DNA from: Perkinsus olseni
Taxonomy: Eukaryota
DNA: 35,842 nt
Assembly (NCBI GenBank): GCA_013115125.1
Contig: JABANN010000357.1
Coordinates: 1-35,842 of the forward strand
Direction: 5' to 3'
In this document: positions 1-35,698 of the stretch, piece by piece
How the letters are laid out: each line of letters begins with the position of its first letter
Position numbering within the stretch: the first letter of the stretch is position 1
Position numbers and translations under genes: made by a program
Notes under the pieces: model-generated
The model's database searches: none
Told to the model about the DNA's origin: nothing
The model's input: the letters and a program-made list of their open reading frames with translations, nothing else

Positions 1-1140
1 GACGAAGATCGACCTAAGCTCGGAGTTGAGGTTTCGGCAACACCCGGGAATGAAGGATTTGTAACGCCCCTAGCGGGAAGTGGCGCTTCAAGCTTGGGCT
101 CTCAAGTACCGAAGAATCCGAATGCCATCGCCGCGAAGGTGTTCCTGCCAAAACTGAAGGATAGATTTCGGTTTCGGGAACATAACGAAATGGTTGGCAT
201 TGTCTTCTATGAGGCGGGGCTTGGTACTTCAGATAGTCAGGGTAACTTCACTGCGACGGTGCCTCAGACGATATTGGTAACCAAGTACCTACAGAGTCTT
301 GAGAGTGTCACCGAGGTGTATGAGCGTGCTATGGACGTCGCCCTACAGACCAAATATCGCTGGAGAGAGATGAGCGATATACTCAACCAGGCCTTTGGGG
401 ACCGGGTCGCGATGCGCACCGAAGTCGCGCGCCGACTCCGAGACCTGAGGTTCCGAGGATTTCAGCATGTCGACGACTTCACCCACCAGATCACCATCAT
501 CACCAACATGTGGATGGCGGTCTACTCGTCAGGGTTCAGTGAGTCGCGTTACCTCGTGGCTAGCTTCCTTGCCAAGTTACCGTCCGATACTCTGGAAGGG
601 GTGGTTAATGGCATCTTGCGGGAGGTTCCCAAGGAGGGTGCTCCGATCTGGGAGGATTATGTCCAGCTTCATAGTACGGCACCTGCTCCGAGATTAGCCC
701 CCTCTTTTGATCTGTGCGAATCGATTAGGTCTGCCTGTAAAGTTGCGGAGGTCACTCATCATCTGCAACCCAAACCATCAGCAGATAGGGTTCGTCAAGT
801 CTCGGATAATCAAGGAGCTTTCCGCCGTGGACCCACTATTACTGAGTGGGCTTCCAAATTTCCCGAAGGGTCGGTAGTGTACTTCCGCACTGATAAGCCG
901 GTCTCTCCAGAGGTTCTCCGCAAGACCTTCAACGGTCTGGGCGCCAGGGAGGTGCGCGCCCACGTTCATAAGCGTGGGCACCGGTTTGGTTTCGCGGCCC
1001 TCAACAACGGAGCCGAAGCTGCCAAGCTGATCCAGAACGGTGTGCCTGCGAGTTCTGATGGGGCGAACCAGGGTCTCCAGATCCGTACATTCGTCCCCGG
1101 AGGCACTCGCGGGAGGCTGCCTATGAAGTCGGGAAACTAA
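1..1140 (+). CDS. gag: Gag-like protein (5' partial) with a C-terminal RRM-like segment
   Basis: Frame 1 is open from base 1 (DEDRPKLGVEV...) to TAA 1138-1140. It has a capsid-like helical stretch (RWREMSDILNQAFGD...RRLRDLRF...VDDF) and lies directly upstream of pol. Confidence 0.8.
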   Translation, partial: DEDRPKLGVEVSATPGNEGFVTPLAGSGASSLGSQVPKNPNAIAAKVFLPKLKDRFRFREHNEMVGIVFYEAGLGTSDSQGNFTATVPQTILVTKYLQSLESVTEVYERAMDVALQTKYRWREMSDILNQAFGDRVAMRTEVARRLRDLRFRGFQHVDDFTHQITIITNMWMAVYSSGFSESRYLVASFLAKLPSDTLEGVVNGILREVPKEGAPIWEDYVQLHSTAPAPRLAPSFDLCESIRSACKVAEVTHHLQPKPSADRVRQVSDNQGAFRRGPTITEWASKFPEGSVVYFRTDKPVSPEVLRKTFNGLGAREVRAHVHKRGHRFGFAALNNGAEAAKLIQNGVPASSDGANQGLQIRTFVPGGTRGRLPMKSGN

Positions 1141-1175
1141 TTGCGGTTCCATCTCCGAGAGGGGGTGGTGGGGCC
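1131..1175 (+). promoter_or_regulatory. Programmed -1 ribosomal frameshift signal
   Basis: Slippery heptamer G GGA AAC (1131-1137) is in gag phase just before the stop. A hairpin CCATCTCC-GAGA-GGGGGTGG (1149-1168, extendable to 1145-1175) follows. The -1 frame is stop-free into the pol ORF. Confidence 0.85.
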
Positions 1176-4100
1176 ACTACTACTAACGATCACTGTGGAC
1201 TGGTTGATCCATGTGACTACGTTTCTGTACCACTTCACTCTTCTTTGCATGATGATCAAACCCCTCATACTGCCAATTCCAGTGCAAGCTGTGATACTTG
1301 CTTTGATTCGTCCAAGAATTGTATTGATTCTTCATCTGTCTATGCATATGAGTATTCGAAATCGTCATCAAACCCCCAAGACCAGGTAGACCCAGATAGA
1401 CCTTTACAGGGCGCATTTTTGGATACTAGTAATGAATCCCCCTTAGTTGGTCCACCTTTCGACTCTGAAATAGATTGTGTGAATTATGGCTCATCAGGGC
1501 CCTTACCGGAAATCGTATTATCCGGATCTCTCGATAACCACAATGTTCAGCTCATTGTTGATTCTGGTGCCGGCTTCTCTTACATCTCTAGAGTAGATGG
1601 GGAGCGTATGAAGTTTACTCCTCGCAAAGCAAGCTCAATAGCCGTCAGAGTCGCCAATGGGGAGCAGGTTCAGGTTTCGGAGGTTCTCTGTGGACAGTTG
1701 TCTCTAAAAGACTCCAATGAGGAAGTCGTAACTTCCCCTCAGGCGTGTGAGATTCGCATCCTACCAATCTGTAGCAGTGTAGGCAGCTCACATGTGCCGT
1801 CTATCCTCTTAGGACGGGATCTTCAGCGGTCCTTCAAATTGGTTATCGATGGTGGCGAAAGAGTATTTTTATCCGGCGTCTGCATATTTGATGCTCAGAT
1901 ATCACGTACAGAACCGTCAGCATGTTCCTACGTGCACGATTATCTGCGATGCATCGAGCCGGCTCCATTACCTGACTTGAGGGTAGCCCAACCGTCGGCA
2001 GACTCGTTTGTCAACTTACCATGTCCCGCGAGTGCTACCCGTCCTCTCAAAGAGTTGTGTGAGAGTCTATGCACTGCTGTACCATTCGGCCCAGACGACC
2101 GAGGATATTCTTCTGAACTCCGATGCTTGCCAGAAGGCGAGGTACCTTTCCCTCCGGGACAACGGTATGTGTGGGCTATTTGCTCTCCGTCGTTACCTAA
2201 ATCCCTGTCCATTCGTCACTACGCCCATCGCCTGTATGAGAAGCTCTGTCCCGAAGCACGGACCTTACACAAAGAGCTGATTGAGGGATACGTTAGTCGC
2301 GGCCTGTGGAAGCCGACAGCAGACGTTCCCCCAGGCTATGCTGAGGGTGAAGTATTCATGGTGGGTGGTCCTGGTAGTGGTGCTACTTCAAGAACGGCAT
2401 GCAAAGGGCGCCTCGTATGCGACCTCAGGGAGACTAATGAGAACCTTCCGCCATCGAGCACATGTACCTTACCCGTTGTCACAATAATAGCCGCTCTGAG
2501 GGCAACTTGCCCTCCGCTAGTGGTCACCGCTGATGTGCACAGCGCTTTTTACATGCTACGGTTGTGCACTTCCTTCCATGCGTCTTCACACAATACTTCT
2601 GCCGATACCAGGGAGACCCGATCATCGTCATCGGTAGTGTCATCAGGCCATTGTCCTCATGACCACCATAAATGTCTCCCCGGCTTTGCATTACATTGCG
2701 GCGACGGAGGGAAGTATCTATCTCATCGGGTATGTTTTGGATGTTTATTTGGTCCCGAGTCGCTTGAATGCTCACTCGGACGACAAATCCAATCGTTTCG
2801 CACTTCACCTATCTGCAATTTGGTGTCAAGTGGGATAGCACACTTTGTCGATGACCTCTTGTTACATTTCGCAATCGAGGATGCATGTAAAATTGTATTC
2901 TTATTATCAGTATTATTATGCTATCTATCCCTGTGTGGATTTGCAATCTCTATTCTTAAATTTGCTATCCTAGTGCACCATTCCGTACACTCCCAGGCGG
3001 CGTCTCTACATACCTACGTCCGGGAGTCCATGCCGGTGCTGGGTGTTCTGCTCTCGTATGACCAGGAAGGACTCGTGGTGGATTGCAATCGTCGACCGGG
3101 GCTTGAGAAGGCCAAACGATTGTTAGAAGCTGAATGCTGGTCACGTCAGACAGTTTACCGCATTGGTGGCGCTCTGGGCGTAGATAAGGCGGGCTTACAT
3201 GCTGAGATCAAGCCGTTATGTGATGCTGCGCGAAGACTGTTCGGACGTATTCCGAGAAGTGTACCATGGACTACTATGTTGAGTGACGGAGATCTGACAC
3301 CGGCGCAACGAGAGTGTTGGCAACATATCCGTGAACAGATGTTGGCCTATATTGATGAGGGTCTAAAACATCCATGTCATCACGGCACCCCAATCCTATC
3401 GTCTGCGACACCCCGATGCTTGGTTCTACAAACGGATTCAAGTGGGTCTGGTGGTGGATACTACATTTATATTCTTCTTCCTTCGGGTGAAGAAGTCCCC
3501 TTGGTGACAGATAGTTGGATATGGTCTCCCCGACAAGCTCGGTATCATTCAAATCGTCGCGAACTCCTCAGTCTCTTTCGTGGAGTTGCCAGTACCGCAC
3601 GAATACTTCAACAACTACAGTCTACTCAATATCAGTCATGTAAGCCACTAGACAAATGGTTGAAGTTGGTTATAGAGTGTGATAATGCTGCTTCCGTTCG
3701 ATGGTGCCATACTACAGCTTCTACACTCAAGGTGACCGCGGTCGAGAGGGACGCCATTATTCGGTTGGTTGGGGCGCTTGGCACTCAACTTCACTCCATT
3801 AAGGCTTTGGTCCCTTATGAGATTCGCCACTTGCCGGGGATATCTAACACAAGGGCAGACGGGTTGAGCAGGGTTCTTGAAGCGCCCATTACTGGTTCCT
3901 CGGCGACCATTCACTCCTTGTTGCGGGCCGTCATTGCGGAGGAGACCACTTCCTCCGAAAAGCAGAAGAAGGGACTCTTCGAAACGGCCGAGGAGATGCA
4001 TGCCGAGGGCGAGCGCGATGCCGATACCGATTGGTGCTGTGATGGGTGCCCTGGGCATCTTCTGCCATCTCCAGAAACCAATGCTATTTATGAGGATGGT

Positions 4101-5558
4101 GTTCGTCTGGTGGAAGAGTGTCTTCCTTTTGTCACGCCCGAGATACAGACAACTGCATTCGTTGACAACTGCTGTTTAACCAGAGATGTATCTTCGGTGG
4201 ACTCTCCATCTCCGAGTTGCCCGCTGGTACGTCGTCTGAAAGAATGCAGCTGGGGGGCGGGGGGTATGTTCTATATGGTTGCGGTTATGCGGTGGTGCCT
4301 TAAAACTTGGAAGACCCTGTCCCAAGACCCTAACTCTACGGCCTCTATTGATTACCCTACGGTATGGGATCGTTCTGATCTGCTGGTGATCGTACGTAGT
4401 GATCAACACAATTACCCTAACGTACCTCCTTGTAGCGAGGTAGGTCGTGGTACGGGACCATATTTTCGAATTGATAGTGTTGTTCACCTTCGATCGGCAG
4501 GACCAACGGGGATTGTAGAGTATAAGCCTTATGTCTCACCGTATTTGCGAGATATTCTCCTCCGAGATATTCACCGTTCCAATGACCACTGCTCTCCTTC
4601 TTATGCTCGTTCCCAACTCCTTACAGGGTATTGCAGTACCCGGGTGACGATAGCTGCTAGACAGATTTGTAGAAAGCAGTGTTCTCTATGTATTCAGTTC
4701 GCTCGTAAGGCTAAATGGACTCTACCGGTCGGGGGGCCGATGTTCGATATTCGTACGCTCCTTACATCACCATCTTATCGGCCTTATGAGGCCATCGGTG
4801 TCGATTATGTCACTGTTGAGGGGATTAAAGTAGTAAGTTTTTGTTGCGTGGCAACACGCCATATGACTCTTATTTATACTCCCACTGAGTCGACGTCGGG
4901 CCTTATAATGGCGTTCCAGGAATTTATGATGCTCTGGGGGACTCCTCGCATAGTCCTGAGTGACCGAGCGTCGTACTTTAAGAGCGTTCTGTGGAATCAG
5001 TTCCTCAAAAGTCACAATATTCTATCCTGGTTGAACGCCTCTGTGGCTCCGTGGGAGGGATCGTACTATGAAAGACTGCATGGCATCGTAAGGACTATCT
5101 TAAGGCCGATGCTCTTGATACCTTATACTCGTCGGATGCTCCGTGAGTTTGATCCTCGCAGTGTCCAAGATGTTCGTTCGCTGCGGTTGCTGTTGTTAGA
5201 GGTATCTCTGCTGTTGAACACTCGCCCGCTCACTATTGATTGCGAGGACGGGGTTATCACTCCCGACTCTCTGGTACAAGGATATACTCGGTCTACGTCT
5301 AGTACCTCTTCACCGAGTCCCATTGTTGAGACGGGTGATGCTGTACCGCCAGCACCAGACTGTGTTGGTGCGGCGGCTGTACCTATAAGTCCTCCTGCTG
5401 CAGTCCTTCCTTCTAGAGGACCTGATACTGCTCCGCGTCGGGTGGCGGCTGTCCGTAGGGTGTTCCTGGATTACCACTTCCGCCGGTTGAAGGAGCGTAG
5501 TAACGCTCAGTTTCATTCTAACGGGCATTGGTTCTCCCGTGTTCATCCAAGCCGCTAA
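1137..5558 (+). CDS. pol: Pol polyprotein: aspartic protease, reverse transcriptase, RNase H, integrase
   Basis: PR: LIVDSGAGFSYI...ILLGRD. RT: GRLVCDLR, ADVHSAFY, FVDDLLL. RH: LQTDSSGSGGG, RRELL, ECDN, HLPGISNTRADGLSR. IN: HRSNDH...CSLC, GVDY, LSDRASYF, APWEGSYYERL, LNTRPL. Confidence 0.93.
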   Translation, partial: LIAVPSPRGGGGATTTNDHCGLVDPCDYVSVPLHSSLHDDQTPHTANSSASCDTCFDSSKNCIDSSSVYAYEYSKSSSNPQDQVDPDRPLQGAFLDTSNESPLVGPPFDSEIDCVNYGSSGPLPEIVLSGSLDNHNVQLIVDSGAGFSYISRVDGERMKFTPRKASSIAVRVANGEQVQVSEVLCGQLSLKDSNEEVVTSPQACEIRILPICSSVGSSHVPSILLGRDLQRSFKLVIDGGERVFLSGVCIFDAQISRTEPSACSYVHDYLRCIEPAPLPDLRVAQPSADSFVNLPCPASATRPLKELCESLCTAVPFGPDDRGYSSELRCLPEGEVPFPPGQRYVWAICSPSLPKSLSIRHYAHRLYEKLCPEARTLHKELIEGYVSRGLWKPTADVPPGYAEGEVFMVGGPGSGATSRTACKGRLVCDLRETNENLPPSSTCTLPVVTIIAALRATCPPLVVTADVHSAFYMLRLCTSFHASSHNTSADTRETRSSSSVVSSGHCPHDHHKCLPGFALHCGDGGKYLSHRVCFGCLFGPESLECSLGRQIQSFRTSPICNLVSSGIAHFVDDLLLHFAIEDACKIVFLLSVLLCYLSLCGFAISILKFAILVHHSVHSQAASLHTYVRESMPVLGVLLSYDQEGLVVDCNRRPGLEKAKRLLEAECWSRQTVYRIGGALGVDKAGLHAEIKPLCDAARRLFGRIPRSVPWTTMLSDGDLTPAQRECWQHIREQMLAYIDEGLKHPCHHGTPILSSATPRCLVLQTDSSGSGGGYYIYILLPSGEEVPLVTDSWIWSPRQARYHSNRRELLSLFRGVASTARILQQLQSTQYQSCKPLDKWLKLVIECDNAASVRWCHTTASTLKVTAVERDAIIRLVGALGTQLHSIKALVPYEIRHLPGISNTRADGLSRVLEAPITGSSATIHSLLRAVIAEETTSSEKQKKGLFETAEEMHAEGERDADTDWCCDGCPGHLLPSPETNAIYEDGVRLVEECLPFVTPEIQTTAFVDNCCLTRDVSSVDSPSPSCPLVRRLKECSWGAGGMFYMVAVMRWCLKTWKTLSQDPNSTASIDYPTVWDRSDLLVIVRSDQHNYPNVPPCSEVGRGTGPYFRIDSVVHLRSAGPTGIVEYKPYVSPYLRDILLRDIHRSNDHCSPSYARSQLLTGYCSTRVTIAARQICRKQCSLCIQFARKAKWTLPVGGPMFDIRTLLTSPSYRPYEAIGVDYVTVEGIKVVSFCCVATRHMTLIYTPTESTSGLIMAFQEFMMLWGTPRIVLSDRASYFKSVLWNQFLKSHNILSWLNASVAPWEGSYYERLHGIVRTILRPMLLIPYTRRMLREFDPRSVQDVRSLRLLLLEVSLLLNTRPLTIDCEDGVITPDSLVQGYTRSTSSTSSPSPIVETGDAVPPAPDCVGAAAVPISPPAAVLPSRGPDTAPRRVAAVRRVFLDYHFRRLKERSNAQFHSNGHWFSRVHPSR

Positions 5559-5724
5559 GTCCATTGTGCCAGCACGCATTTTGGAGGCCTACCCGGCGCG
5601 TGATGGGGTCGTTCGTCGATATAAGGTGAGATTCCTTCGGAGTGATCATGAAACAGTGATCAGTCATGCTAATATTGCTGCTGCTTCCCCGTGGGAATCC
5701 TTAGTTTCCGATGACGATCTGTGA
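5491..5724 (+). pseudogene. Integrase C-terminal tail (Bel/Pao DUF5641-like) in the +1 frame relative to pol
   Basis: IGSPVFIQ...PARILEAYPARDGVVRRYKVR resembles the Bel/Pao VGDxVL...GRIxEVxPGxDGxVRVVxV tail but is out of frame with pol. Confidence 0.7.
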
Positions 5725-5799
5725 TTCGTTCCGGTCCTCTCTCTACTGATGTATTTCTCTTTATTTCTGTTATATAGCCTGACTGATCAGGGGGGCGTA

Positions 5800-6049
5800 T
5801 ATTGATGCTCGATCAGTTAGTTTGGTAGAGATTGTCTCCCTCTGTACATGCGTGCAGATGGTCTCCTGTGCTAGCGTGCTATTGTGCTAGCGTGGGATTA
5901 TTATGAGCCTTGAGTATTGAGCGTCGATAGCTGTTAATTCCGTAGCCATCTTGGCTCAAGGTCTCAGTGTACGTTTGGTTGACGCATCTCTCCAGCTATG
6001 TCGGGTCGTGTTGACTCCAGTAACCACCCAGAGGCATCGAACAGCAACA
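5800..6049 (+). repeat. 3' LTR (~250 bp)
   Basis: Follows the PPT. Start TATTGATGCTCGAT matches the reverse complement of the end, TGTTGCTGTTCGAT, at 11/14 ungapped; the LTR ends ...CAACA. Homology to a host paralogous locus begins at 6050. The 5' LTR is outside the window, so there is no direct-repeat confirmation. Confidence 0.72.
5939..5960 (+). ncRNA. Spliced-leader exon (Perkinsus/dinoflagellate type) with GT donor, embedded in the LTR
   Basis: TCCGTAGCCATCTTGGCTCAAG fits DCCGTAGCCATYTTGGCTCAAG (Perkinsus SL ACCGTAGCCATCTTGGCTCAAG) and is followed immediately by GT at 5961-5962. Confidence 0.9.
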
Positions 6050-6462
6050 CTGCTGGTGTGCAGCTTGCTTCGATCCCACGTGATTCTGAATGTCTAACCC
6101 CGGCACGAGTCGTCGTCGACTATAGTCAAGCATGCGATTCAGGAAATAGTGATCAAATGATCACCGATTGCGGAAGAGAATACTGGAAGGCTTGTATTAT
6201 GGGAGTTCATCAATCTTACGACCGTGAGACAGTCTCGTTGAGACATACGTTTCATCTACTGCGCCGAAGAGTACATCAGAGGGCTCGGGATTTGCTGCCG
6301 AATGCCCCCTTGATTCGAGAAACCCGGTGGTAACGGGACAGCCGCTAGCCGGTGAACGTGATATCGACAGCACCTCGTCATCAAGCGCACAGCTATTTTG
6401 ACGAGCAAAAAACTCAACGTTACAACTGGAGGCGAAAGAGCCTGCCGGCAGCCGGCGACAAC
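6050..6462. repeat. ~400-bp dispersed repeat, copy 1 (paralog of 12936-13330)
   Basis: Colinear shared blocks: CTGCTGGTGTGCA, ACGTGATTCTGAATGTCTAA, AGCCGCTAGCCGGTGAACGT, CGTCATCAAGCGCA, AAAACTCAACGTTA. Confidence 0.9.
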
Positions 6463-6832
6463 TGCGTCTTCCTCGTTTCAGATTTTCCGACACCCACAGA
6501 GAGAGTTAGCGGTCGCTCAAGGACCTCAACACTGGCGCCGCTGAAGAATAAAGTTCGTATTCTTTGCTGTGCGGCGCCAGCGCAAGATTCAGCCGCAGCG
6601 TTTCATCTTGTGATATGCTCCGAGAATTTCTAGCTTAGAAATTCTAAGCACGTGGGATATCGACTCTTGATCCGTTCCTTTGCGCATTCGTAAATGGTTA
6701 CAACACAGCAGGCTAATTTATGAGCTCCGTCGCTCAAACAAAATGCTATCTGGAGCTGTGGACCGGCCTTATCTTTACGCGCAGTATCACCTCAGACTTT
6801 CAGGTTGAGTCTTTTCTTCAGTCTTCTTCGCC

Positions 6833-7445
6833 ATGACCGATACCGGTGTAGATGCTTCTTGCCTAGTAGCCTACAACAGCTTCAAGCAGAATCGTGACAA
6901 GAGGTGGTCTCAGGTTAGACTTTAGAGTCTCGATGTAGCCGACCTTTGTCAGGTACATCGTCTTCAGGGCCAATGATTATGATCAAGTCGTCGTAGCCTC
7001 CGAGGGTGGCAGGGATAAGACTTACACTGATTTTATGGACGTACCAAGAGGACTTGCCGATGCCGATACGATGCCTCTGCTCCGTCTCATTGTAGTCTAC
7101 GTTCTTGTTTGTAGGCCATCGCTGACGAGAGAGAGCCCGGCTATGGCGTTGTGGACTTCAAGCCCGAAGGGTCTGAGGAGGTACGTCGTGTCTACCTGCG
7201 CCTCTCCCGATTTCTTTGGATCAGGAGAAAACGTTGCTCCTTCTCTGGGTGCCTGATTCCTGTATTATGAAGAAGAGGATGCTGTAGGATGCTCTCTGTT
7301 CCCGACGATTTTCATCCCACCCGCCTTTAGGCTGGTGTCTCTGGAACAGACGATGCAGCGCTATTTTGAGGGAACTCACAGAGTAATCACTATTCGTGAT
7401 CTTAGTGAACTGGTTCCGGAGTCCGTCTCGAGACAATTGCAATAG
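6833..7445 (+). CDS. Actin depolymerizing factor/cofilin-like protein, 5 exons
   Basis: Spliced product: MTDTGVDASCLVAYNSFKQNRDKRYIVFRANDYDQVVVASEGGRDKTYTDFMDAIADEREPGYGVVDFKPEGSEEEKTLLLLWVPDSCIMKKRMLLVSLEQTMQRYFEGTHRVITIRDLSELVPESVSRQLQ. ADF motifs RYIVF, YxVxDF, WxPD...KRML; four GT-AG introns. Candidate trans-splice acceptor CTTTTCTTCAG at 6811-6821. Confidence 0.85.
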
Positions 7446-9423
7446 TGTTAATATCTGTCACTCATCTACCATACACGATTGTTTCTACGTAAGAAACTTT
7501 TTGTGCTAATCTGCTACCACCATGATGTCCCCTTCGACAGTGCTCTATGATTCTCGCGATTGCAAGTGCATCTGTGTGAACGTCTTTTCATACGAATGGT
7601 GATTACCAACGCTTGTCCCTGAGAGTTGTGTGACAATGGTAGTGCCTGCACGAGCGCGAACCTAGCTTCTCCCGAGTGAGCCATCGATGGCCGCGTGTGC
7701 ATTCTAAGATCCCCGCAGCGACCTACCCCAGTCAACCTTAGTCACTCGTTGCGATCCAACAACTAACCTACATTCTGAATAATGCAATAAATTCGAGAGT
7801 GCACTCAGTGGGTACTACCCACTGAGTAGAGGGAGCAAACATCCTCCGGCAGTCTAAGACAGAATACACCCGAGTGCCCGGTCAACCACAGTACAACTGC
7901 AAACTCGTTAACTGTATGTTTCGCTCCGCAGGAGTTAGGCGCGGTTCGGCCGGTATTCCTTGGGCTGTCCAAACGTAAATGCCCAGGTTGGGCATTTATG
8001 GTTCGTGTCAGTTTTCTGACAAGTTGTCAGGAAATTCAGTGACTTGTCTACTACGACGGTTATCACAAGGGCTCTAAGACAAGTCGTAGCCCGCTCATCT
8101 ATAGTGTCCTCGGACCTTAGCGCTGCCACGTGAACCCTTCACTAGAGTTCTTACATCTTCGTGATGTGTCTGCATTTGCTGCTTCTGTTTACTCCGCTTG
8201 TAGTGTTTAGATACGTGAATAGTGTAATACGCACTTAATACGCAATAAATAAATGAATTTACTCTGTGCATGTTATGCCTGTGAGTGGCGCCAGCCTGGC
8301 GCCGCCTGGTGAGCCTCGTGGAAATCGAGTTATCTTGGTGGCATTCATGATGTGCACTGTCGCATCAGCCTTCCGCCGCTGTTGGGTCTATCAAGTGTAT
8401 CGGATGCCTTTTTCATGGATAAAAGTGAGGTTTTGTTGTTCGTCTACTTCCCGTACTACGATGATAACGGGTTTTTGGAGGGGCGACGGAGGAACTCCAG
8501 AGAATATTTTCCCATATCCTCCCCTTCCCTCATTAGCTAAACAAGATCAAAACGGCATTCAATGCAAGAATGACCGGAGGGAAGGAAATGCATCGACCTG
8601 ATCATAGACGTCGAGTTTGATCGTCCCGGTGGCATTCCACCGTCGGAGGAATGGGTCGAATCGTTCGTGCTTGGCAACACGAACAGATTTTTGAGATTAT
8701 TACGCGAGCACAAAAAAGATTTAAGAGAGTCGAAGAAAAGTCGCAGTATTTAACCCTTCCATTATGCTCATCACGAAGTTCATGTTGACGGGAGATACTG
8801 TTAAGTTGAACGTGTTGAATTCCTCCGCTACGCAGATTGGCTCATCCATACGCATTCGATCGGAGCCATGTTCTGGAAGAGGCGCACACTGAAACTGCGG
8901 GGACTGGGGGAAGAAGACGAATATGGCACACCTGAAGAGGGTATCACGTGCCTCTGTTGAGGACAACAGGCAGGGAAACAACGCCGGCCCGTCTGCAGGC
9001 GTCCGTGGTCCGTGCTGGCGTCCCGTCGTCCGTGGTCTCCACAGGACCACTCCTCGTGACTGCCGTGCACAAATTACCACTCCAGAAGTTAGTATCGTAA
9101 CACAGCTAGAACTAGCATCATCAGCGGAAACCACTAGGTTGGGTAGTGGCATACTACCTTGTGTGACTACGTCCCCTGCCGCGATGGTTTCACCATCAGT
9201 AAAACCTACGGCCTTCCTTACACAGGGCTCATTATCTCGAAAATCCCCGAGCAGGTCGAAGTGGGGCTTCCAAACGTTTCGGTTTTCGCGAACACCGACA
9301 CAAAAAACACGAGGAGTCCGCCGTGTCGTTCCTGTTGTTCTATCATCCGTGTTATGCTAGTTCCTGTCGATTAGAACTGGATTTCTTAGCGAACCACGCG
9401 GAAAAGGTTGGGATAAAAATGGG

Positions 9424-12400
9424 ATGAAGACGTCAAGAGAGAAATCCGTTGCAGCGTTTGAAACCAATGGCAGTGAACATGTAGAGATTTCTTGCGCGAT
9501 CTATACTAATCTCATGGTGAAAGTGACAACTCCAGTAAAGAAACAGGAGAGTCTCTCCCCCGAGACGACAGCCGACGTCGGAGACAGCAACAACGGCTGC
9601 ATGGTACGACAACAGCTAGCGACCCTCGGGTTCGGTGCCGAGAAGATGAAGGCGGGCAAGAGGTGAGGAGGTTCATGTCCGGAATACCTTCTGTAAACAT
9701 TTTGATTGAGAATGGCTGATCTGGAACACAAAACCCAAGCTTGCCATCTGGAATTCAATCTTTCATCTGCTGTCTTTCCATCATCCGCCACTTAGCGTAG
9801 CTTCAGCGTAGCTCCTTGTCGAAGCAAGATAAAATCAGTTGAATATACGCCACAACGAGCTCCCTCTAATATGAACATACTCTGAGTTTACTAGTTTCCA
9901 TGCTGATTGTCAATCAGGGATTGATAGGCTTGACGTTGACTCAGCTTTCAGGTTGATGATAGAGCGTAAAAAAGTAGCGAACCCTAATTGAATGGAAGTA
10001 TTGAATCTTTCCATTAAAGCCTGTGAACACTGTAGTAGTGCTCACGCATAGTGCGCAGTGGTATCGCGATTACTGATGACTCATGAATCGTCTACAATTG
10101 AGGGGAATCAGCTCGTCATTTAGTGGCCTGCATGTTGACATATAGTCCTGGTAGGTTTGCAAAGCGCACAGTGTGGGTGTGGAGAGAACTACGGCAAGAC
10201 GCCCTCGCAGCAGCTCTGCGTCATCTCACCAGAAGTGAGATCCCGAGCATAGTACTGGTCAACAAGCTACAGAAGATGCCAGAGTTTGGGAGCAAATGTG
10301 GACTGGTCACGGCGGTGCGGAGGAGCCTTGAATCGCGATCAGCAGGGAAAGAATGCAGCTGGTTGCCGGAAACATACATCTTGCCTGAAGTGAGGACCCA
10401 CAGTCACCACGATACCACGGAACGTTCTTTTCAGGAAAACAAATCGGCTTCAGGGGCGGTGATGAGGTCGACAGAAGAGACCTGCTGGATCGTGAAACCC
10501 GCTTCGTTGAACAGGGGCATGGGCATAAAAGTAAGAAGTTGATGCTTCGCGGAGGGACAAATTCTTGGCAGAAATCAGCATGATCCTTTTCTTGATGGGG
10601 TGACTGAGGCCTCAGCGTTAAACGTACAGCTAGGGTAATTGGTCTTGTGAGCATCTTATAGTGAAGTTATATAGAAGCGCCAGACGCACGGTGTGAAAGT
10701 CCCTAGGGAGAGTCCCCAACAACTTCCAATGCGGCACAGGGCAAACGATGAGATCAATACATAGATTTATATAATGTAGAATGTGAATATTATATAGTAT
10801 ACCCTCATAATAGGGTCTCTCCGTAGTTCTCGGGCTTGTGATACGACTTGCGACCTGGCCATGATAGAGAACGGTGATTATCACCGGGTGATACCATCAG
10901 ATACTCGATCGGAAGAGTTCACTGGAGTATTTGAGAAGACCTCCACAGGGCCGATCCCCCAAGGGAGTCATTCAACGATATTTGAGCGAACCACTTCTCC
11001 TGGATGGCCGTAAATGTGATCTTCGAATGTATCTGCTGATAACGAGGACAGAGCCCTTGAAGGTGGGGCAGCACGATGGCTTCTGAACTACCGCGCTAGA
11101 TTGTCACGCAGGCCTACTTTGCCCGAGGGTATGTACGGCGTACCTTGGCCAAGTACTCTGAAAACATCTCTGATCGGCCAGCGCATCTGACGAATCAAGC
11201 GGTGCAGAAAAAGCTCGGAGGTGACTACGAAACTCGCAAACAGGAATCAACGTGGTAATCACGGCTGCTTGAGGAGCTCCCGCCTGATTTTTTGCAGGAG
11301 TATCCTTCAACTCTGCGAATACCTAGCATCAACCTCGCCGGGTGAGGGGGGCGACGCTGACTGGTGGTTCAATTCCTGGTACTGTTCTGAGTTTGAACCC
11401 ATCGTGATGGAGATGGCCACGGTCACATTAGATGGAGCTCGCAGTTCCTTAGTCAGGCAAGGCTACTCCTCACTCTTGTCATTCGCTCGAGTGACATTAG
11501 CAGGTCGGTAGTGCAGCGAAAAGCTGGTACCGTTCTCGGAGGAGAATTCTTCGGGTACGACGTTCTCCCTGGAGCTGATCTGAGGCCGTACCTCCTCGAG
11601 TTCAACTCCAATCCAGCGATCTTCACCAATACTGATATCCTTCAAGAAGTGGGTGCCTCTTCTAAGCCCGCGATTTTTACATTTTTTTCTTTCGCTTTTG
11701 GATAATGCCACATTAATTTGAGTGTTTCCAAATTTCTCGAATCGTGCCAAGTAGATCTTCGTGGAGCCCAATTTGAAAGGACTTTTCTGAAATCGAGCAC
11801 AAGTCGACTCAACAACTAGAGTAGAGAGGGCCGAATACTTCCACACACATCGTGTTCGCGGTGAGCAGTCTAATTCGTGGTAGAAATAATACCGCCTCTG
11901 TCCAAAGTTTACTTCAAGATGTTATAAGTCAAGGTCTCAGGTGCAATGTGCCATCACATAATTCCTCGGGGTAGGTATAAGTTATTTTGCCGTAGCCATT
12001 GTAGTACGATGGCACAAGAACGAGCCCGAACTGCTCATCGTTATATTTTTATTACGCACTGTTCCGGCAAGACTGCAAGTCGATGTTCGAGCGGCGATCT
12101 GGAGTAGCTGCAAAATCCCATGAAATTTCGATCGCTAGAACGCTGGAGCAACCTGGATACAACGAAAGGGAAAGTGATTTGTCCAGCAGGTCGCTGTGCA
12201 ATCCTTTAGTCGCAGCGGTTCGTTATTCGTATCTTGTGGTACTCACCAGCGAGTTCACTCAGGTGATCCCTCCCCTTATCAAGGAAGGTGTCCAGCTAAT
12301 CGAGAGTGATAATCATGTTGGACCAACTCAGTTGTCTCCCAATCTTTGGCATCTTATAGTTGATGACCAAACAGGATACGTTTTCAAGCGGCGTGGCTGA
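9424..12400 (+). CDS. Tubulin-tyrosine ligase-like (TTLL family) protein, multi-exon; start codon uncertain
   Basis: Motifs VGDSNNGCMVRQQL, WLPETYIL, WIVKPASLNRGMGIK, IQRYLSEPLLLDGRKCDLRMYLLI, FFGYDVL...PYLLEFNSNP across GT-AG exons; stop at 12398-12400. Confidence 0.88.
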
Positions 12401-12857
12401 AGCTCTGTTTGACTTGTTGTGTTGTGTGAGATGCGAAACTCATCTTCCACGGAGGAAACTGGACATCGATACATAAAAAGGATACATGTCTCACAGGCAA
12501 AGACCTCTAGTCCGTAGCATGTTCATTTCATGCACTGCATGACAGACCCGCAGCTTGGTAGCACGCCTGCCGTGTAACGTGCGCGGATAGACGCCTATGG
12601 AATTGCGGACACATATAGTGTCGCTCGTTCTACTACCACAGATGACGGATGCAGTCAGAATTCGTTTGCGGTGCGTGTTCTTTTTCGGGAGGGTTTTTAT
12701 CGTGGAATTGGTGAGGTCTGGAGGTCGATTCCTCGCTCGGTTCTCGAACTTCAGGCCCGCAGTCAACTGGATCTCGCCTTATGATGGGAGTCTTATCTTG
12801 CCGCTTCTTAGAAGCGGTTTCACGGCTCCACAGGGAATTTAGAGGAATCATATAATA

Positions 12858-12930
12858 TGCCCAGACCCAGGATCGAACTGAGGACCTCCTGACCTTCAGT
12901 CTGGCGCTCTCCCAACTGAGCTATCTGGGC
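12858..12930 (-). tRNA. tRNA-Phe(GAA)
   Basis: GCCCAGATAGCTCAGTTGGGAGAGCGCCAGACTGAAGGTCAGGAGGTCCTCAGTTCGATCCTGGGTCTGGGCA, a 73-nt cloverleaf with one A-A mismatch in the anticodon stem. Confidence 0.92.
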
Positions 12931-12935
12931 TGAAT

Positions 12936-13330
12936 CTGCTGGTGTGCAAGCTGCTTCCATCCGACGTGATTCTGAATGTCTAATCCGGCACTACGAGCCG
13001 TCATCGACGATAGTCAAGCGTGCGGGTATCACCAATTGCGCTAAGGAACATTGAGATGCTTCTATTATAGGAGTCGATCGATTGATCAGCTCATTCGACT
13101 ATGAGACAGTCTAATCGAGGCCTACGTGCTATATACTACGCCGAAGCGCACATGTAAGTGATCAGGACTTACTGCCGCTTGCCCTATCGATTCGAGAGCC
13201 CGGTGGTGACGGGAGAGCCGCTAGCCGGTGAACGTTATATCGGCAGCACAACGTCATCAAGCGCAGCGCTCATTCGACGAGAAAACTCAACGTTAGAACA
13301 GGAGGCATGAGAGCCTGCTGGCGCGCAACT
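12936..13330. repeat. ~400-bp dispersed repeat, copy 2 (5' flank of tRNA-Phe)
   Basis: Colinear homology with 6050-6462; separated from the tRNA-Phe 5' end by 5 bp (TGAAT). Confidence 0.9.
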
Positions 13331-14188
13331 CATACGACCGGCTGAAGGTTCGAAGAACACCGACTGAATGTAGCTCCATGCGATAACTCGCGTCAAAGTC
13401 ACTGGTAAATTGATGGTCGGATCGCTCTCTCCTTGCGCACCCGCTGCCTCCGTATAGCTTGAGAAGATTCGATGCGGGGCTCAGGAAGTCGGCTCGTAGG
13501 ACTCGCGATGAGAAGACAGTAGTTGAAGTCATTACAAAGCCGGCATGAAAGCGTGGGACTGAAGCTCTTCTGTTGCAGCTGGGACTGTTCAGAGACCGCA
13601 ACTACTACCAGCTGACAAACCTAACGCGGGGTGACATACGTGCACACAGCACGCTTAACGTCAAGCCGCTTCTCTCTGGGAGAAGTTCGTCTCATTGGGA
13701 GTTGTATCTTGTGAGAAGAGAAAGCGCTTCAGTGAGAAGAGTCTTCTCACTGAAGCACTTTCAGCGATGTTTGAGATGATCTCAGGCGCCGCGGGTCGGT
13801 TTGCCCATGCATCGTGGGAAACATCGACCGCATCAGCGCTCGAACAAGCACAACAGCACAGCAGAACAGCAGATCGCTGCGCTACGAACGCAGGTTATGC
13901 GTAGCAATCCGTCCGCACAATCCTCGCTCCTGTGAATGACTAATGATGTCCTTTGTCGACGCGCAAGCACAGTGGGGCAGCGCCATGTCGGAAAGGCGTA
14001 ACGAAGAGATTATCCAAGTAAGAGAGTCTCGATTTGGGACGGGCATGGGTTCCAGTGAATCTTGGGGTTGAAGAATGCCTTGTGTGCCACAGGCCTACGC
14101 CTACGTGAGCTCGGCTACGCCCGCACAAATTTGATTCGGATGTGGTGTGGTGTGCGGCACATCGGACGGAGTAGCTCTCGGTCCATCC

Positions 14189-15363
14189 ATGATCATGAGC
14201 GTCCTCGTTTTCTTCACTTTCATCGCTCTGTTCGGCGAGTCCTGCGGTGAGAAGCTAATCAGAGTTGAAACCATCTACTCTAAGCCCGCAGCCGATGCGA
14301 CATGGGCCGAACTCCTTGGTATCGTTTGGGTTGACTTCCAACCTGTTAAAGCCGTTGTCGACACTGGGGCCTGAGCTCAAGGCCCAGTGTCACTGTGGCA
14401 CACTTACTCCTTCTTTCTGTGGAAGGAGTGGTATGATAGAGTTGCTCCAGGAGGCTGCGATGGAGTCATCTATGGCTGCTACGGTTGCTCCTCAGCCGAG
14501 TGTCAGCAAGCACCTCGCAAGACTTTCAGGTATCACAATGGCAAGGAAGTGACCTTGTTCCCCCACGTCGGGGTGGTGTTGTTCGACGTCAACTGTGAAC
14601 GCTTCGTAACCCCTCATGTGACTTTCGGATTAGTCGTTGGACCGAAGAACAGACCCTGGGTTTCGCTTGGGCTCTCGCTCAAGAAAGTCGCCAGTGAACG
14701 GTATGTACCTCTGATGGACCAGCTTCTACCACGTAAGGGTTTCGAGGGTCTCATCGATAAGAAGGCATTCTCGTTCTATCTGGACGAGGGAAGCCTCCGC
14801 GGCGAGCTCATACTCGGTGTTGATGATGAGAGGAAGCACGATGGTGCTCTTGAATACGTCGAGGCTATCCACCTTGACTTTGCCCCGCCGGGCATTAGTA
14901 TAGCCGGCTTGGGCATCGGGAATGATTCGAAGAACCGAATCGAAGTCACGTCGACGTGGCACGTCGAGGACGATGGGGAATGACACGTCGACGACGTGTC
15001 GAGTGTGGCGTTCCTGGACACGGGCTCGAGCAAGATGCACGTACATGAGTCCCTCAAGCCGCGAGTACTCGCCCTCCTTCAGAGCGCTGGCACCAAGGCC
15101 GTGGTTATCAAGGAGTCTGGGTCCTTCATCGTCGCCTGTGAAGACGTGAAATACCTGCTCTCAATCACTTTTTTCATGAAGGGTTTGCAAGCCGATGAGT
15201 CTCTGTCCATGTGTTTCCCGATGCCCTGAAAGGGGAGCGACCAGATGGCAGCTGTGTGTTGGCGCTGGCCTTCGGTAAAGTGTGGTATCTTGGGTTGCCC
15301 ACGGTCGTCGGGAAATACGTCTCGGTGAACGAAACTCGCATCGGTTTGGGCAAGGCGAAATGA
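14189..15363 (+). pseudogene. Pepsin-like (A1) secreted aspartic protease pseudogene
   Basis: Signal peptide MIMSVLVFFTFIALFGESCG; both catalytic motifs (AVVDTG, AFLDTGSS); FSFYL...GELILG; C-terminal WYLG...RIGLGKAK. In-frame TGA at 14372 and 14981 and a frameshift near 15199. Confidence 0.85.
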
Positions 15364-19683: not shown

Positions 19684-21190
19684 TCACAAGTCGTGCTCCT
19701 TCCCGGTGGTGAATACTCTACAGCAGGGAGCTCCTGAGAGAACGGCAGCGTGAATCACCATGGGCGAGTCATCGAGAAGAGCCCGTTGAACCTTACAATA
19801 GTAAATATAACAGCTGTATTCCCAGTATGGTTGAGGAAACAATCTGCAAGCTGGGCGGTGAAAAGAGGGACCTGGGTGGAGCGCACCACAAGGATTTCCC
19901 AGCAGTATCTGTCGCAGTAAGCGGTCGATTCTCACCAGGTTGGTCTCCTTTATCCCAAGCCGTTTGAATCTCTCTTTGCTGGCCACACACCTCAGTCTCT
20001 GAGGTATGGCCTCCGATATCTGCACATCGAATCGGTCAGACCGACCGTTCTTATGCTTGCGACCGTGTACTCACCTTTCTGTTGAAGGAGAGGTCGAGCA
20101 TCTCTAGTTGATTGCAGTTCTCCAGGATGCTGATCACACCGTCGTCGCTCACTGATCGGCATCTGGACAGCTTCAACCGTCGAATTGGCCGTGGCAGACT
20201 TTTCGCAAGGAGCGACAAGCCTGCGAAAGGCTCAAAGCTCGAACTTCCGTACGGTCGTCTTGCACATTCACCTGCATCGTCGATTGATGTATCAGACAAG
20301 TCGAGGAACTCCAACTCGCCCAGACTCGACAGCGCCGACACCAGTGCCTCCGAGGAAGAGGACCACCTAACACGACCGTGGAGGCGACACAGTGGTCAGC
20401 CCAGTTCCAGCTCACCCGCTCAGGTTTAGCGACTTCAGACTAGTCAGCTTGCTGAGATTGTCCGGCGATGGGCACTCACCTTCCGGGTTGGACAGGTCGA
20501 GTCGCAACTGACAGACGATGTCGCTTCCTTGCAGAACAGGAGACGTCATACCAGGGATGCATGCAAGCGGTCGGCTATCATGTCAATGCCGCACTGCCCG
20601 ATCTTCCCCATGTCCAACCTCGGCAGGGAGACCTCCCCCAGGCAGGAGGGTGAGTCCCTCAACGACATGGTGATGTTGGAGATGCTCTCTGTCGTCATAC
20701 TCGAGGTGAAGCGACGGCGGAGGGCTCCTAGGGAGTTGATGGGCGGAGCCCAGCTAGTGATGGAGGTGTCCCACCAACGCGGATTGTCTTCAACTTTTTG
20801 CAGTTTCGCCGAATACCGGCGAATGTCGCATCCGCAGCAGCCAGAGGAATATCAAACAAGTCGATATGGGAGAGAACAGCACACCTACGAAATTGAGAAC
20901 ACTCAAACAGCGGCTCCGGTAGCTCAGTCGGTAGAGCGCGTGCCTTTTACGCACGTGATCGCGGGTTCGAGCCCCGCCCGGAGTGTTTCGCGCAGCTACC
21001 TCTTCATGAACATGTTAATGGCTTTCCCGGTTAACTTCCCACATCCTCTTAGACAGACCTGCGTGATATGCTTGTAATATTCACTGCTGGGCAGCTGAGC
21101 CATTCGGATGAGCATCTCAGGTAGTAGCGTGGTGAAGTCAGCGAGTACCACACGACAGACTCCACGCCGCCGACGGAAAGTCGTCAAACT
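19684..21190 (-). CDS. Leucine-rich repeat protein (RNI-like/cysteine-containing LRRs), multi-exon; 5' exons may extend to the ATG at 23118
   Basis: Spliced LRRs: ITQVCLRGCGKLT, LSHIDLFDI, CKKLKTIRVG, LLRLDLSN, LKSLNLSG, LEFLDLSDTSIDD, IRRLKLSRCRSVSDDGV, CNQLEMLDLSFN. Confidence 0.8.
20913..20985 (+). tRNA. tRNA-Lys(TTT)
   Basis: GCTCCGGTAGCTCAGTCGGTAGAGCGCGTGCCTTTTACGCACGTGATCGCGGGTTCGAGCCCCGCCCGGAGTG, 73 nt; perfect anticodon stem CGTGC/GCACG around CT-TTT-AC. Confidence 0.93.
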
Positions 21191-23409: not shown

Positions 23410-23995
23410 AGAGCACCACCTTCCGGTGTGTAAAGACTACTGAATCAGGCGGGTATCCTGTGGATATTATCCACCGCCCGCAGCAGGTCACTCGGCAGGC
23501 ATGTGTCAGAAACTCTCCTTTCTCATTGAGGGGCTGCAAAGGGAAGTGTGATCGCTTCCCTTCGGTAACAAAGCCGATATTCAGATGGCCACTACAAACA
23601 TCGTGAGTACACCGCCCCGAAGTCTCCGAGTCGACGACTTTATCCGTGTGATCATCAGAGGTCATCGGTGGCAGCAGACAGTATTAAACCAAGCGGCGAG
23701 GTGACCCTTCTGGTATCAACATCAACTCTTCTGCATGCTTCATTGTGCCTGACACCTCTCCGGCGGCTGCAGAGATCTCAGACAAGCAAACAAGGGGGAG
23801 CGCAGCACACCTGCCAGAAAATAAGGCCAGTTTACTCTATACCCCGGTTGCTCATCCCGCAGACTGCGGGAGCGCGCTGCACGTGCCTTGTGCCCTTCGA
23901 GTCAGCCCGTGTCGACTCGAGCCTCTTCAAGAGTGTTTCGTATCGCTACCTCTTCATGAGTATGTTGATCTTTTCCACGTTGAACTCTCCCGGGC
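23410..23995 (-). pseudogene. Decayed duplicate of part of the LRR gene, including a degenerate tRNA-Lys (+ strand, ~23842-23935)
   Basis: 23931-23991 aligns with 20981-21040 (GAGTGTTTCG....GCTACCTCTTCATGA..ATGTT). CAGCACACCT and CACCTTCCGG are colinear. CCCCGGTTGCTCA resembles the tRNA's CTCCGGTAGCTCA. Confidence 0.7.
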
Positions 23996-24249
23996 AGGCT
24001 TCTCGGAGCCGTTCAGGCAGAGTGTCGCAGTGGGATGATGATAGTTGTTCGTCAATCTCCGCGGGACCTATAATTTAGTCAATGACATTGACGGAACAAT
24101 CAGCCCCGCCATCGCATTTTCCTTCTAACGAGACCCTGGAGATGGTCCAGTGGTCAACCAAAGACGACCGTAAGGCACTCGACCCAATTCTAACTCAGGC
24201 CCAGTTGCGAAATCACCACAACAAGCATGAAATAAAAAGCTCGCTGCCA

Positions 24250-35099: not shown

Positions 35100-35698
35100 T
35101 TAACCTTCTTGCGGTACCTGAGGAGGAATATCAAGTAAAACAAAACCATCACCAAGAGCATTTAAAACGATTTCTTCCTCAGCCTTGTCCACCCTCCAAA
35201 TGGTCATGTCCTCCTTCCCGTCTTCGACCGCCAGCGTCAGATCACTAACCTTAGAAGAAGAAGCAGGAATGTCCACCAACTCCTGCACAAAGCTAGACGA
35301 GTCTAAATCCGAATAGACTAACCACCTCCCATCGGCCATACCTTCTCTGTGGGTGGCCAACCCAGACTTACCTCTACCACCAACCCGCCTAGGCTCCCGA
35401 CCGCCGTGCTTTTGGCACAGTTGCCGGGGGCCTGGGCGGGCAGCGGTGGTGCAGCCCTCCACAGTGCATCTCCTCCCTCCGCCGTGGGCCTTGCAAAGAT
35501 CGCTGCTGCCCACGGCGCTCTTCGTGCAGTTTGGAAACTTGCACCGACGACCACCTCCGTGGCCAATGCAGTGCGAGCTTCCGTCGCGAGCCTGAAGAAC
35601 GAGAACAGTTTATGGTACGAACCTGAGTCGCAGTTGCTTACCTGCTTTAGGCACCCATGAAATAGGATGCGTTGTGTCGTGTGTTGCATCAGTCCCAT
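35100..35698 (-). CDS. HGGG-repeat Zn-finger protein (WRKY19-like C-x4-C...C-x2-H repeats), spliced; 5' end uncertain
   Basis: GCLKQ|ARDGSSHCIGHGGGRRCKFPNCTKSAVGSSDLCKAHGGGRRCTVEGCTTAARPGPRQLCQKHGG, with a GTAAGC...TTCAG intron. Confidence 0.8.

What the first reader, a model, noticed from the sequence alone, without database searches (positions are those of the whole stretch)
6040..6075. Element appears inserted at the 5' end of a tRNA-Phe locus (possible tRNA-targeted integration)
Seen: the flank from 6050 (CTGCTGGTGTGCA...) is homologous over ~400 bp to 12936-13330. In that paralog the same point lies 5 bp from the 5' end of tRNA-Phe (12930, minus strand). Known: Ty3 and some Dictyostelium elements target Pol III start sites. 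Inference: this locus is a second tRNA-Phe unit interrupted at about -6 to -10. This predicts a tRNA-Phe and a CTGCT-like target duplication left of the 5' LTR. I know of no such targeting for a Bel/Pao-like integrase.
Basis: partly seen in the sequence, partly recalled or inferred. Interest (0 to 1): 0.7.

Follow-up and report, generated by a model that had tools for sequence, protein, structure and literature searches.

The report
Retrotransposon beside a likely tRNA-Phe gene
An intact jumping gene in a Perkinsus-like parasite genome ends exactly where a duplicated tRNA-Phe upstream region begins, which suggests it inserts at tRNA gene start sites, but the tRNA on its far side lies outside the window and could not be seen.

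Summary
Window 6050-6467 is homologous to 12936-13340 (304 of 394 ungapped columns identical; blastn E 5e-68). The homology starts at 6050 = 12936. In the paralog that point lies 5 bp from the 5' end of tRNA-Phe(GAA) (12858-12930, minus strand). Public contigs confirm that 6049 is the last base of the LTR: in three runs 6049 is followed by 308 letters, opening with a primer-binding-like TGG, and then by window base 1.

The element is about 6.6 kb with open gag and pol frames. Its pol 3' half is at single-copy depth. Its closest proteins are from Perkinsus. Its integrase is nearest to Bel/Pao integrases.

The 5' LTR lies about 560 bp before the window, no genome is held, and the contig tables were cut. 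A tRNA-Lys unit in the window was duplicated with both flanks, so duplicated tRNA units occur here.

Best reading (about 0.45): insertion 5-10 bp upstream of a second tRNA-Phe gene, directed by the Pol III complex as for Ty3. Rivals: a chance insertion, or a repeat boundary with no tRNA. If true, it is a new lineage and host group for a known strategy.

The parts
1..1140 (+). gag-like ORF, open at the window start. The window begins inside the element, 308 bp after the 5' LTR.
   Evidence: Translation (379 aa, no Pfam hit). Read by eye, it resembles the N-terminal part of the P. olseni polyprotein P0003. The 308-letter gap comes from the joint.
1059..5558 (+). pol ORF of 1499 aa without a stop, in the order protease, RT, RNase H, integrase. 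It overlaps gag by 82 nt in the -1 frame; the frameshift is inferred.
   Evidence: Weak Pfam hits: Asp_protease_2 at residues 156-223 (2.7e-6), RT_RNaseH at 788-884 (1.3e-3), rve at 1241-1321 (1.2e-3). DSGAG and FVDD motifs are visible. Columns invariant across 16 family members include an adjacent D-D pair, an H-H-C-C set and two further D, with one E nearly invariant; I read these as the RT and integrase catalytic residues.
5789..5795 (+). Polypurine-like run (A followed by six G) just before the 3' LTR.
   Evidence: Sequence. The function is inferred from its position.
5800..6049 (+). 3' LTR of about 247-250 bp. The end at 6049 (...CAACA) is firm. The start is approximate: 5800 from contig breaks, with the first TG at 5803.
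   Evidence: the internal contig of X1 ends at 5829, the flank contigs start at 6020/6021, there is a joint 6049->1, and loose ends follow 6049. No other LTR copy lies in the window.
6050..6054 (+). CTGCT, the first bases of the flank and the putative right-hand copy of the target-site duplication.
   Evidence: By position only. The left-hand copy could not be seen.
6050..6467 (+). Copy A of the ~400-bp non-coding unit, paralogous to the upstream flank of tRNA-Phe.
   Evidence: No common open frame, and mismatches by codon position are 33/24/33. No Rfam match except one chance-level hit, RT-5 at 6572-6631, E 3, 16.5 bits against a gathering score of 45.7, which lies outside the unit.
12858..12930 (-). 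tRNA-Phe(GAA), intact. It is a multi-copy gene in the organism's read data.
   Evidence: In one search the depth bin 12713-13166 is 3244 in X1 and 999.5 in X6, against about 91 for single-copy flanks.
12931..12935 (+). 5-bp spacer (TGAAT) between the tRNA 5' end and the start of the homology.
12936..13340 (+). Copy B of the ~400-bp unit, the 5' upstream region of tRNA-Phe.
   Evidence: The first 40 columns next to the tRNA are 88% identical to copy A.

Best explanation
An intact LTR retrotransposon of about 6.6 kb inserted into the immediate upstream region of a second, paralogous tRNA-Phe unit. Its integrase is Bel/Pao-like and its host is Perkinsus-like. The integration site lies between about -5 and -10 from the mature 5' end of the tRNA, roughly where RNA polymerase III starts transcription. 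The element would stand head-to-head with the tRNA, its 5' LTR next to the tRNA 5' end.

The most likely mechanism is tethering of the pre-integration complex to the Pol III initiation complex (TFIIIB, TFIIIC or Pol III), as for Ty3. In a genome with abundant tRNA genes this gives a safe landing site.

Shown: the element's anatomy, the exact LTR end, the paralogy of the right flank with the tRNA-Phe upstream flank, and the 5-bp offset. Inferred: a tRNA-Phe left of the 5' LTR, the target duplication, and any targeting mechanism.
For: - The homology starts exactly at the LTR end (6050 = 12936) and runs about 400 bp.
- 6049 is confirmed as the LTR end by contigs of three runs.
- The junction itself is carried by contigs that span 6020/6021 to about 9080 with 0 differences, in X1 and X6.
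- In the paralog that point is 5 bp from the tRNA-Phe 5' end.
- tRNA units are duplicated with both flanks elsewhere in the window: tRNA-Lys 20913-20985 has a decayed copy near 23840-23935.
- The 40 columns nearest the tRNA are among the best conserved of the unit, at 88%. This fits a constrained Pol III upstream region.
- The insertion looks young compared with the 23%-diverged duplication. The frames are open, and the pol 3' half (4087-5448) has a depth of about 82-95 in X1 against about 91 for the flank.
- A random landing in the 10 bp upstream of one of the 2 tRNA genes in 35.8 kb has a chance of about 6e-4. This is my own rough arithmetic.
- tRNA genes are an established transposon target in this genus: Dada DNA transposons insert in P. 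marinus tRNA genes, with more than 500 copies of five tRNA types (PMC3706591, passages and section 13 read).
- The position fits known Pol III-start targeting. [quoted passage not shown]
Against: - The tRNA-Phe, the 5' LTR junction and the target duplication were never seen.
- Only one insertion is available, and no other LTR copy lies in the window.
- The joints and loose ends listed include no link from about 12935-12940 to the LTR start. That table was cut (5 joints and 183 loose ends not shown), and such contigs would be only about 70 nt long.
- Other tRNA-Phe copies have unrelated upstream flanks that diverge at 12932 or 12938. The ~400-bp unit is therefore not a general tRNA-Phe flank.
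- The copy at locus A could have lost its tRNA, as the tRNA-Lys paralog has decayed.
- Every known tRNA-targeting LTR element is Ty1/copia or Ty3/gypsy (PMC5911963 table), so there is no precedent for this lineage.
Confidence: 0.45

Rival explanations
1. A tRNA-Phe gene is present on the far side, but the element has no targeting mechanism. The insertion landed there by chance, or survived there because tRNA-proximal intergenic DNA is harmless in a gene-dense genome (a survival filter).
For: There is only one insertion, and the family is low-copy: the pol 3' half is at single-copy depth. tRNA genes are very abundant, with 2 in 35.8 kb, a high tRNA-Phe depth, and more than 500 copies of five types in P. 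marinus (PMC3706591). The window holds host genes close by: TTL, an aspartyl protease and a guanylate cyclase. The finding was picked out by a reader looking for oddities.
Against: Landing within 10 bp of a tRNA start has a chance of about 6e-4 per insertion at this tRNA density (my arithmetic). A survival filter explains nearness to a tRNA gene but not such precision.
Confidence: 0.2
2. There is no tRNA on the far side. The ~400-bp unit is an independent repeated segment, such as an old solo LTR, another transposon remnant or a small duplicated intergenic block. Its own left boundary is at 6050/12936. At locus B it happens to abut tRNA-Phe, and at locus A it abuts the element.
For: The unit has a defined right end as well, with no homology beyond about 6467/13340 by blastn or tblastx. 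It is non-coding. In X9 a short stretch around 13286-13334 is at high depth (525 against about 50-60), so part of the unit is repeated in another isolate. Other tRNA-Phe copies lack the unit.
Against: It requires the unit's boundary to coincide to the base with the LTR end. By eye I found no TG...CA ends and no flanking duplication. The window holds only two copies. The bins over the unit's 3' part are at single-copy depth in X1 and X6 (6357-6810: about 91; 13167-13600: 88-90), so it is not a young dispersed repeat.
Confidence: 0.25
3. The LTR/flank junction at 6049/6050 is an assembly chimera.
For: The window begins inside a repeated element. This suggests an assembly break at its left end (gag region depth 425-850).
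Against: Contigs of X1 (6020-9086) and X6 (6021-9071) cross the junction with 0 differences. However, they carry only 29-30 bases of LTR, X1 may be the source of the window, and X6 belongs to the same study.
Confidence: 0.03

Closest known systems
Ty3 of Saccharomyces cerevisiae (Ty3/gypsy), which integrates at the Pol III transcription start site
   Same: An LTR element with pol in the order PR-RT-RH-IN. [quoted passage not shown]
   Different: The integrase is nearest to Bel/Pao, not Ty3/gypsy. The host is an alveolate. The tRNA, the target duplication and any interaction with TFIIIB are unobserved here.
DGLT-A of Dictyostelium and the fungal Ty3/gypsy elements Tj1, Tyl3, Ylt1, Tyl6 and Beta/Tca8
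   Same: LTR elements that insert a few to about 30 bp upstream of tRNA genes in compact genomes. These are independent origins of the same strategy (PMC5911963 table; PMC6101501 abstract; PMC5006619 passages).
   Different: All are Ty3/gypsy. DGLT-A sits 13-33 bp upstream and uses its RNase H and integrase N-terminal domain to contact TFIIIC subunit Tfc4. Neither 'Perkinsus' nor 'alveolat' occurs in the text of PMC5006619.
Dada DNA transposons of Perkinsus marinus
   Same: The same genus and the same class of target: multi-copy tRNA genes (PMC3706591).
   Different: Dada elements are DDE DNA transposons that insert at fixed sites inside the tRNA sequence. This element is an LTR retrotransposon that lies outside the tRNA, upstream of it.
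Bel/Pao LTR retrotransposons
   Same: Integrase similarity: 24 of 42 more distant integrase-region relatives carry Peptidase_A17, DUF5641, DUF1758 or DUF1759. The nearest named Atlas clusters carry DUF5641 on 26-45% of their members (score 0.91-0.93, 152-156 shared features; a lead only).
   Different: 0 of 16 members of the element's own family hit any Bel/Pao-specific Pfam model. They give weak hits to RT_RNaseH or RT_RNaseH_2 instead (7 of 16 each). From recall, Bel/Pao elements are described mainly from animals. My searches found no tRNA-targeting Bel/Pao element.

Membership tests
LTR retrotransposon (autonomous) | gag and pol with protease, RT, RNase H and integrase | tested here: met
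   Frames are open. Pfam hits are weak. Candidate catalytic residues are invariant in 16 relatives.
LTR retrotransposon (autonomous) | Two long terminal repeats, a primer-binding site after the 5' LTR and a polypurine tract before the 3' LTR | tested here: inconclusive
   The 3' LTR end at 6049 and a continuation beginning with TGG three bases after it are seen in contigs. A purine run lies at 5789-5795. The 5' LTR itself is outside the window and known only through collapsed contigs.
LTR retrotransposon (autonomous) | Target-site duplication of 4-6 bp | not testable with these tools
   The left junction is outside the window. There is no genome and the contig tables were cut.
Pol III start-site-targeting LTR elements (Ty3-like behaviour) | Insertion within about 20 bp upstream of a tRNA gene | tested here: inconclusive
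   Inferred only from paralogy of the right flank with the tRNA-Phe upstream flank. The tRNA at this locus was not seen.
Pol III start-site-targeting LTR elements (Ty3-like behaviour) | Family-wide enrichment of copies at tRNA or other Pol III genes | not testable with these tools
   No other copy lies in the window. No relative with a usable locus was found in the collections.
Pol III start-site-targeting LTR elements (Ty3-like behaviour) | An element protein binds TFIIIB, TFIIIC or Pol III | not tested
   No such computation or experiment was run.
Ty3/gypsy (Metaviridae) | RT and integrase group with Ty3/gypsy, with gypsy-type integrase C-terminal domains | tested here: not met
   There is no SH3_Tf2-1 or chromodomain hit in 16 family members. 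Distant integrase relatives are mostly Bel/Pao (24 of 42). Only 2 gypsy-type proteins, P0120 and P0130, were seen among the 20 scanned.
Bel/Pao | Peptidase_A17 (Pao-type PR/RT region) and DUF5641 after the integrase | tested here: not met
   0 of 16 family members hit these models at E up to 1. Only the more distant relatives do. A motif of the form LNTRPL...ITPD after the integrase core resembles Bel/Pao from recall only.
Bel/Pao | Integrase closer to Bel/Pao than to other superfamilies | tested here: met
   phmmer hits beyond the element's own family are mostly Bel/Pao. The Atlas lead agrees. No tree was built.

The most novel reading that the evidence does not exclude
A deep-branching, Bel/Pao-related LTR retrotransposon lineage of Perkinsus (Alveolata) has independently evolved Ty3-like integration at the Pol III start site of tRNA genes. 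This would be the first such case outside Ty1/copia and Ty3/gypsy, and outside fungi and Amoebozoa. It would share the tRNA-gene niche with the Dada DNA transposons of the same genus.
Probability: 0.35. Interest if true: 0.75.

Novelty: new variant of a known kind. Interest (0 to 1): 0.45.

Why it matters
Targeting of Pol III genes is the textbook example of a transposon finding a 'safe haven'. It is known to have arisen several times, but only in Ty1/copia, Ty3/gypsy and L1-type elements of yeasts and social amoebae (PMC5911963; PMC5006619). A case in an alveolate parasite, in a lineage whose integrase is nearest to Bel/Pao, would add an independent origin. It would allow a test of which Pol III factor is contacted this time. 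It could also offer a natural site-directed integration tool for Perkinsus. Separately, a Bel/Pao-related family shared by three Perkinsus species and by many unnamed metagenome proteins bears on the distribution of that superfamily.

Tried and rejected
- **Whole genome.** None is held.
- **Earlier notes of this scan.** Nothing for this genome, this sequence or these words.
- **Contig lay-down.** It confirmed the LTR end. It listed no joint or loose end linking tRNA-Phe to the LTR start.
- **Relatives with genomic context.** Single-protein scans found no relative in metagenome contigs, viral contigs or genome contigs. For P0003 in viral contigs, one stretch encoded a relative but no locus was returned.
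- **19-mer from the unit's conserved core.** It gave 6 metagenome loci that share only 19-21 bases, so they are chance matches.
- **22-mer from the LTR.** No match in genome contigs.
- **Called ORFs that read across an LTR boundary into flanks.** The 29-aa piece at the LTR start was too short for the tool. The open frames there are only 35 and 38 aa. The 43-aa piece at the LTR end found nothing among proteins of 23-76 aa.
- **The unit as a known RNA.** No Rfam match except one chance-level hit outside the unit (RT-5, 6572-6631, E 3).
- **The unit as coding.** Rejected.
- **The unit as part of the LTR (LTR running to about 6467).** Rejected, because contigs leave the window sequence at 6049.
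- **A larger duplication including neighbouring genes.** Rejected.
- **A 13-letter motif from another tRNA-Phe copy's upstream flank.** It is not in the window beyond chance level.
- **Literature.** Searches listed no paper on Perkinsus LTR elements at tRNA genes or on tRNA-targeting Bel/Pao elements. One search failed on term format.

Full report
**What is at the coordinates.** The window opens inside an LTR retrotransposon.
- A gag-like frame runs from base 1 to 1140 and is open at the window start.
- A 1499-aa pol frame runs from 1059 to 5558 without a stop. It overlaps gag by 82 nt in the -1 frame.
- Pfam gives only weak hits, in the order protease, RNase H-like, integrase core.
- Across 16 relatives the invariant columns include an adjacent D-D pair, an H-H-C-C set and two further D, with one E nearly invariant. 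I read these as the RT and integrase catalytic residues.
- After pol come a purine run (5789-5795) and a stretch that ends ...CAACA at 6049.

**The LTR end, checked independently.** I laid the contigs of four public runs on window 1-13600 (runs).
- In X1, X6 and X13 a contig passes from 6049 through 308 other letters to window base 1. In X13 this is one 6387-letter contig with 0 differences. It is permuted, as expected when the two LTRs collapse in a word graph.
- Loose ends after 6049 in X1 and X6 begin with a TGG three bases after the LTR, like a primer-binding site.
- The right-flank contigs start at 6020 (X1) and 6021 (X6), 29-30 letters inside the LTR. The internal contig of X1 ends at 5829.
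- So 6049 is the LTR's last base and the LTR starts near 5800-5803. The element is about 6.6 kb, and window base 1 lies 308 bp after the 5' LTR.
- The pol 3' half (4087-5448) has a depth of about 82-95 in X1, against about 91 for the flank. This copy is therefore single. The gag/protease part and the LTR have extra, diverged copies.

**The homology.**
- From 6050 the flank matches 12936 onward. The repeat finder gives three blocks at 81-88%. blastn gives E 5e-68. 304 of 394 ungapped columns are identical.
- A profile of the two copies finds only these two in the window, at 6050-6467 and 12936-13340.
- The left edge is sharp.
- tRNA-Phe(GAA) occupies 12858-12930 on the minus strand. The homology therefore starts 5 bp from the tRNA's 5' end, and the unit is the tRNA's upstream region.

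**What the unit is.**
- It is non-coding: the two copies share no open frame, and mismatches fall 33/24/33 over codon positions.
- It matches no Rfam family. The only hit nearby is a chance-level one outside the unit (RT-5 at 6572-6631, E 3).
- It does not continue to the right, by DNA or by translated comparison.
- By eye I found no TG...CA ends and no flanking duplication.
- The depth bins over its 3' part are at single-copy level in X1 and X6, so it is not a young dispersed repeat.
- Its 40 columns nearest the tRNA are 88% identical, among the best conserved of the unit.

**A parallel case in the same window.** tRNA-Lys (20913-20985) has a decayed paralog near 23840-23935 with homologous flanks on both sides. 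Small duplications of a tRNA gene together with its flanks therefore occur here. One copy of such a pair can also decay.

**The missing half.** The prediction of a tRNA-Phe and a short duplication left of the 5' LTR concerns DNA about 560 bp before the window.
- No genome is held.
- Scans of the three collections found no relative with a usable locus or only chance matches.
- A search for called ORFs crossing an LTR boundary found none.
- The lay-down tables, cut to their best-supported rows, list no link between the tRNA and the LTR start. The expected contig would be only about 70 letters long, because both the tRNA and the LTR are repeated. Its absence from a cut table therefore means nothing.
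- Other tRNA-Phe copies do exist with unrelated upstream flanks, diverging at 12932 or 12938.

**Identity of the element.**
- The closest proteins are partial Perkinsus entries: 98% (P. olseni), 85% (P. marinus) and 75% (P. chesapeaki). A full-length P. olseni polyprotein is 36% identical.
- The exhaustive search gave 507 proteins at E up to 0.001.
- I scanned 18 of the 150 listed hits plus P0003 and P0004. Family members gave only weak RVT_1, RT_RNaseH, Integrase_H2C2 and rve hits.
- 0 of 16 aligned members hit a Bel/Pao-specific model.
- I then scanned 42 of the 150, chosen because their match lay in the integrase part of the query. Of these, 24 carry Peptidase_A17, DUF5641, DUF1758 or DUF1759. 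None carries a gypsy-type integrase tail.
- The protein Atlas also puts the integrase nearest to clusters with DUF5641 (score 0.91-0.93; a lead only).
The family as a whole is a deep, unclassified branch. I built no tree.

**How it most likely works.** The simplest account of a homology that breaks exactly at an LTR end is that the element inserted into a once-continuous paralog of the tRNA-Phe unit.
[quoted passage not shown] Pol III starts about 10 bp upstream, and Ty3 inserts at that start (PMC5911963, passages including its table).
- At 2 tRNA genes per 35.8 kb, a random hit in such a 10-bp window has a chance of about 6e-4 (my arithmetic).
- tRNA genes are very numerous in this genus and are already used by Dada DNA transposons (PMC3706591, passages and section 13).
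- I therefore favour tethering of the integration complex to the Pol III initiation complex, at a confidence of about 0.45 for the whole chain.
- The rivals are a chance or selection-filtered insertion beside a real tRNA (0.2), a repeat boundary with no tRNA behind the element (0.25), and an assembly chimera (0.03).

**Comparison with what is known.** All tRNA-targeting LTR elements tabulated in PMC5911963 are Ty1/copia or Ty3/gypsy, from fungi and Dictyostelium. PMC5006619 does not contain the words 'Perkinsus' or 'alveolat'. DGLT-A uses a different contact from Ty3 (abstract of PMC6101501). My searches listed no paper on Perkinsus LTR elements at tRNA genes or on tRNA-targeting Bel/Pao elements. 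That is a limit of those searches, not proof of absence. I read no supplementary files.

**Verdict.** If borne out, it is a new lineage and host group for a known strategy.

Noticed in passing
window 23840-24000, compared with 20880-21040: A decayed paralog of tRNA-Lys(TTT) with homologous flanks on both sides. ARAGORN and Rfam no longer call it a tRNA. It shows that small tRNA-plus-flank duplications occur here and that one copy can decay.
   Followed up: partly
window 1-6049; proteins P0005, P0006, P0008 and P0007-P0092: The element belongs to a deep LTR-retroelement family shared by three Perkinsus species (98%, 85% and 75% identical fragments) and by many unnamed proteins at about 30% identity. 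Its integrase is nearest to Bel/Pao, a superfamily that, from recall, is described mainly from animals.
   Followed up: partly
window 1-6049 in run X13: One permuted 6387-letter contig carries the whole element with one LTR at depth 31, while the flanks reach only 2-5. The run's kind is unknown. This could mean strong transcription, extra copies or one-LTR circles.
   Followed up: no
window 380-639, 729-2391, 2644-2814, 4052-5326, and 5350 joined to 11: Contigs of X1 and X6 at roughly 2.5 to 7 times single-copy depth (229-653 against about 91) skip or rejoin parts of the element. One joins 5350 to base 11 through 7 letters. These look like deleted or rearranged relatives of the element.
   Followed up: no
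window 9741-9776: A segment of about 36 bp is bounded by loose ends in many contigs: 8 before 9741 and 4 after 9776 in each of X1 and X6, and 15 before 9741 in X9. It is a short multi-copy sequence of unknown nature, just upstream of a tubulin-tyrosine-ligase-like gene.
   Followed up: no
window 12855-12935: tRNA-Phe is highly multi-copy. The depth bin is 3244 in X1 and 999.5 in X6, against about 91 for single-copy DNA. Contig breaks suggest the copies share only the gene plus about 3 bases downstream and about 5 upstream.
   Followed up: partly
window 10102-11702, 14375-14980, 20054-20395, 26371-28375, 35103-35609: Host gene fragments by Pfam: tubulin-tyrosine ligase, eukaryotic aspartyl protease, leucine-rich repeats, adenylate/guanylate cyclase and a WRKY19-type zinc finger. 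The region is gene-dense around the tRNA genes.
   Followed up: no
window 7803-7827, 13720-13762, 14360-14391: Short palindromes of 25-43 bp at 87-96% self-complementarity, picked up by blastn. One lies about 400 bp beyond copy B of the unit.
   Followed up: no
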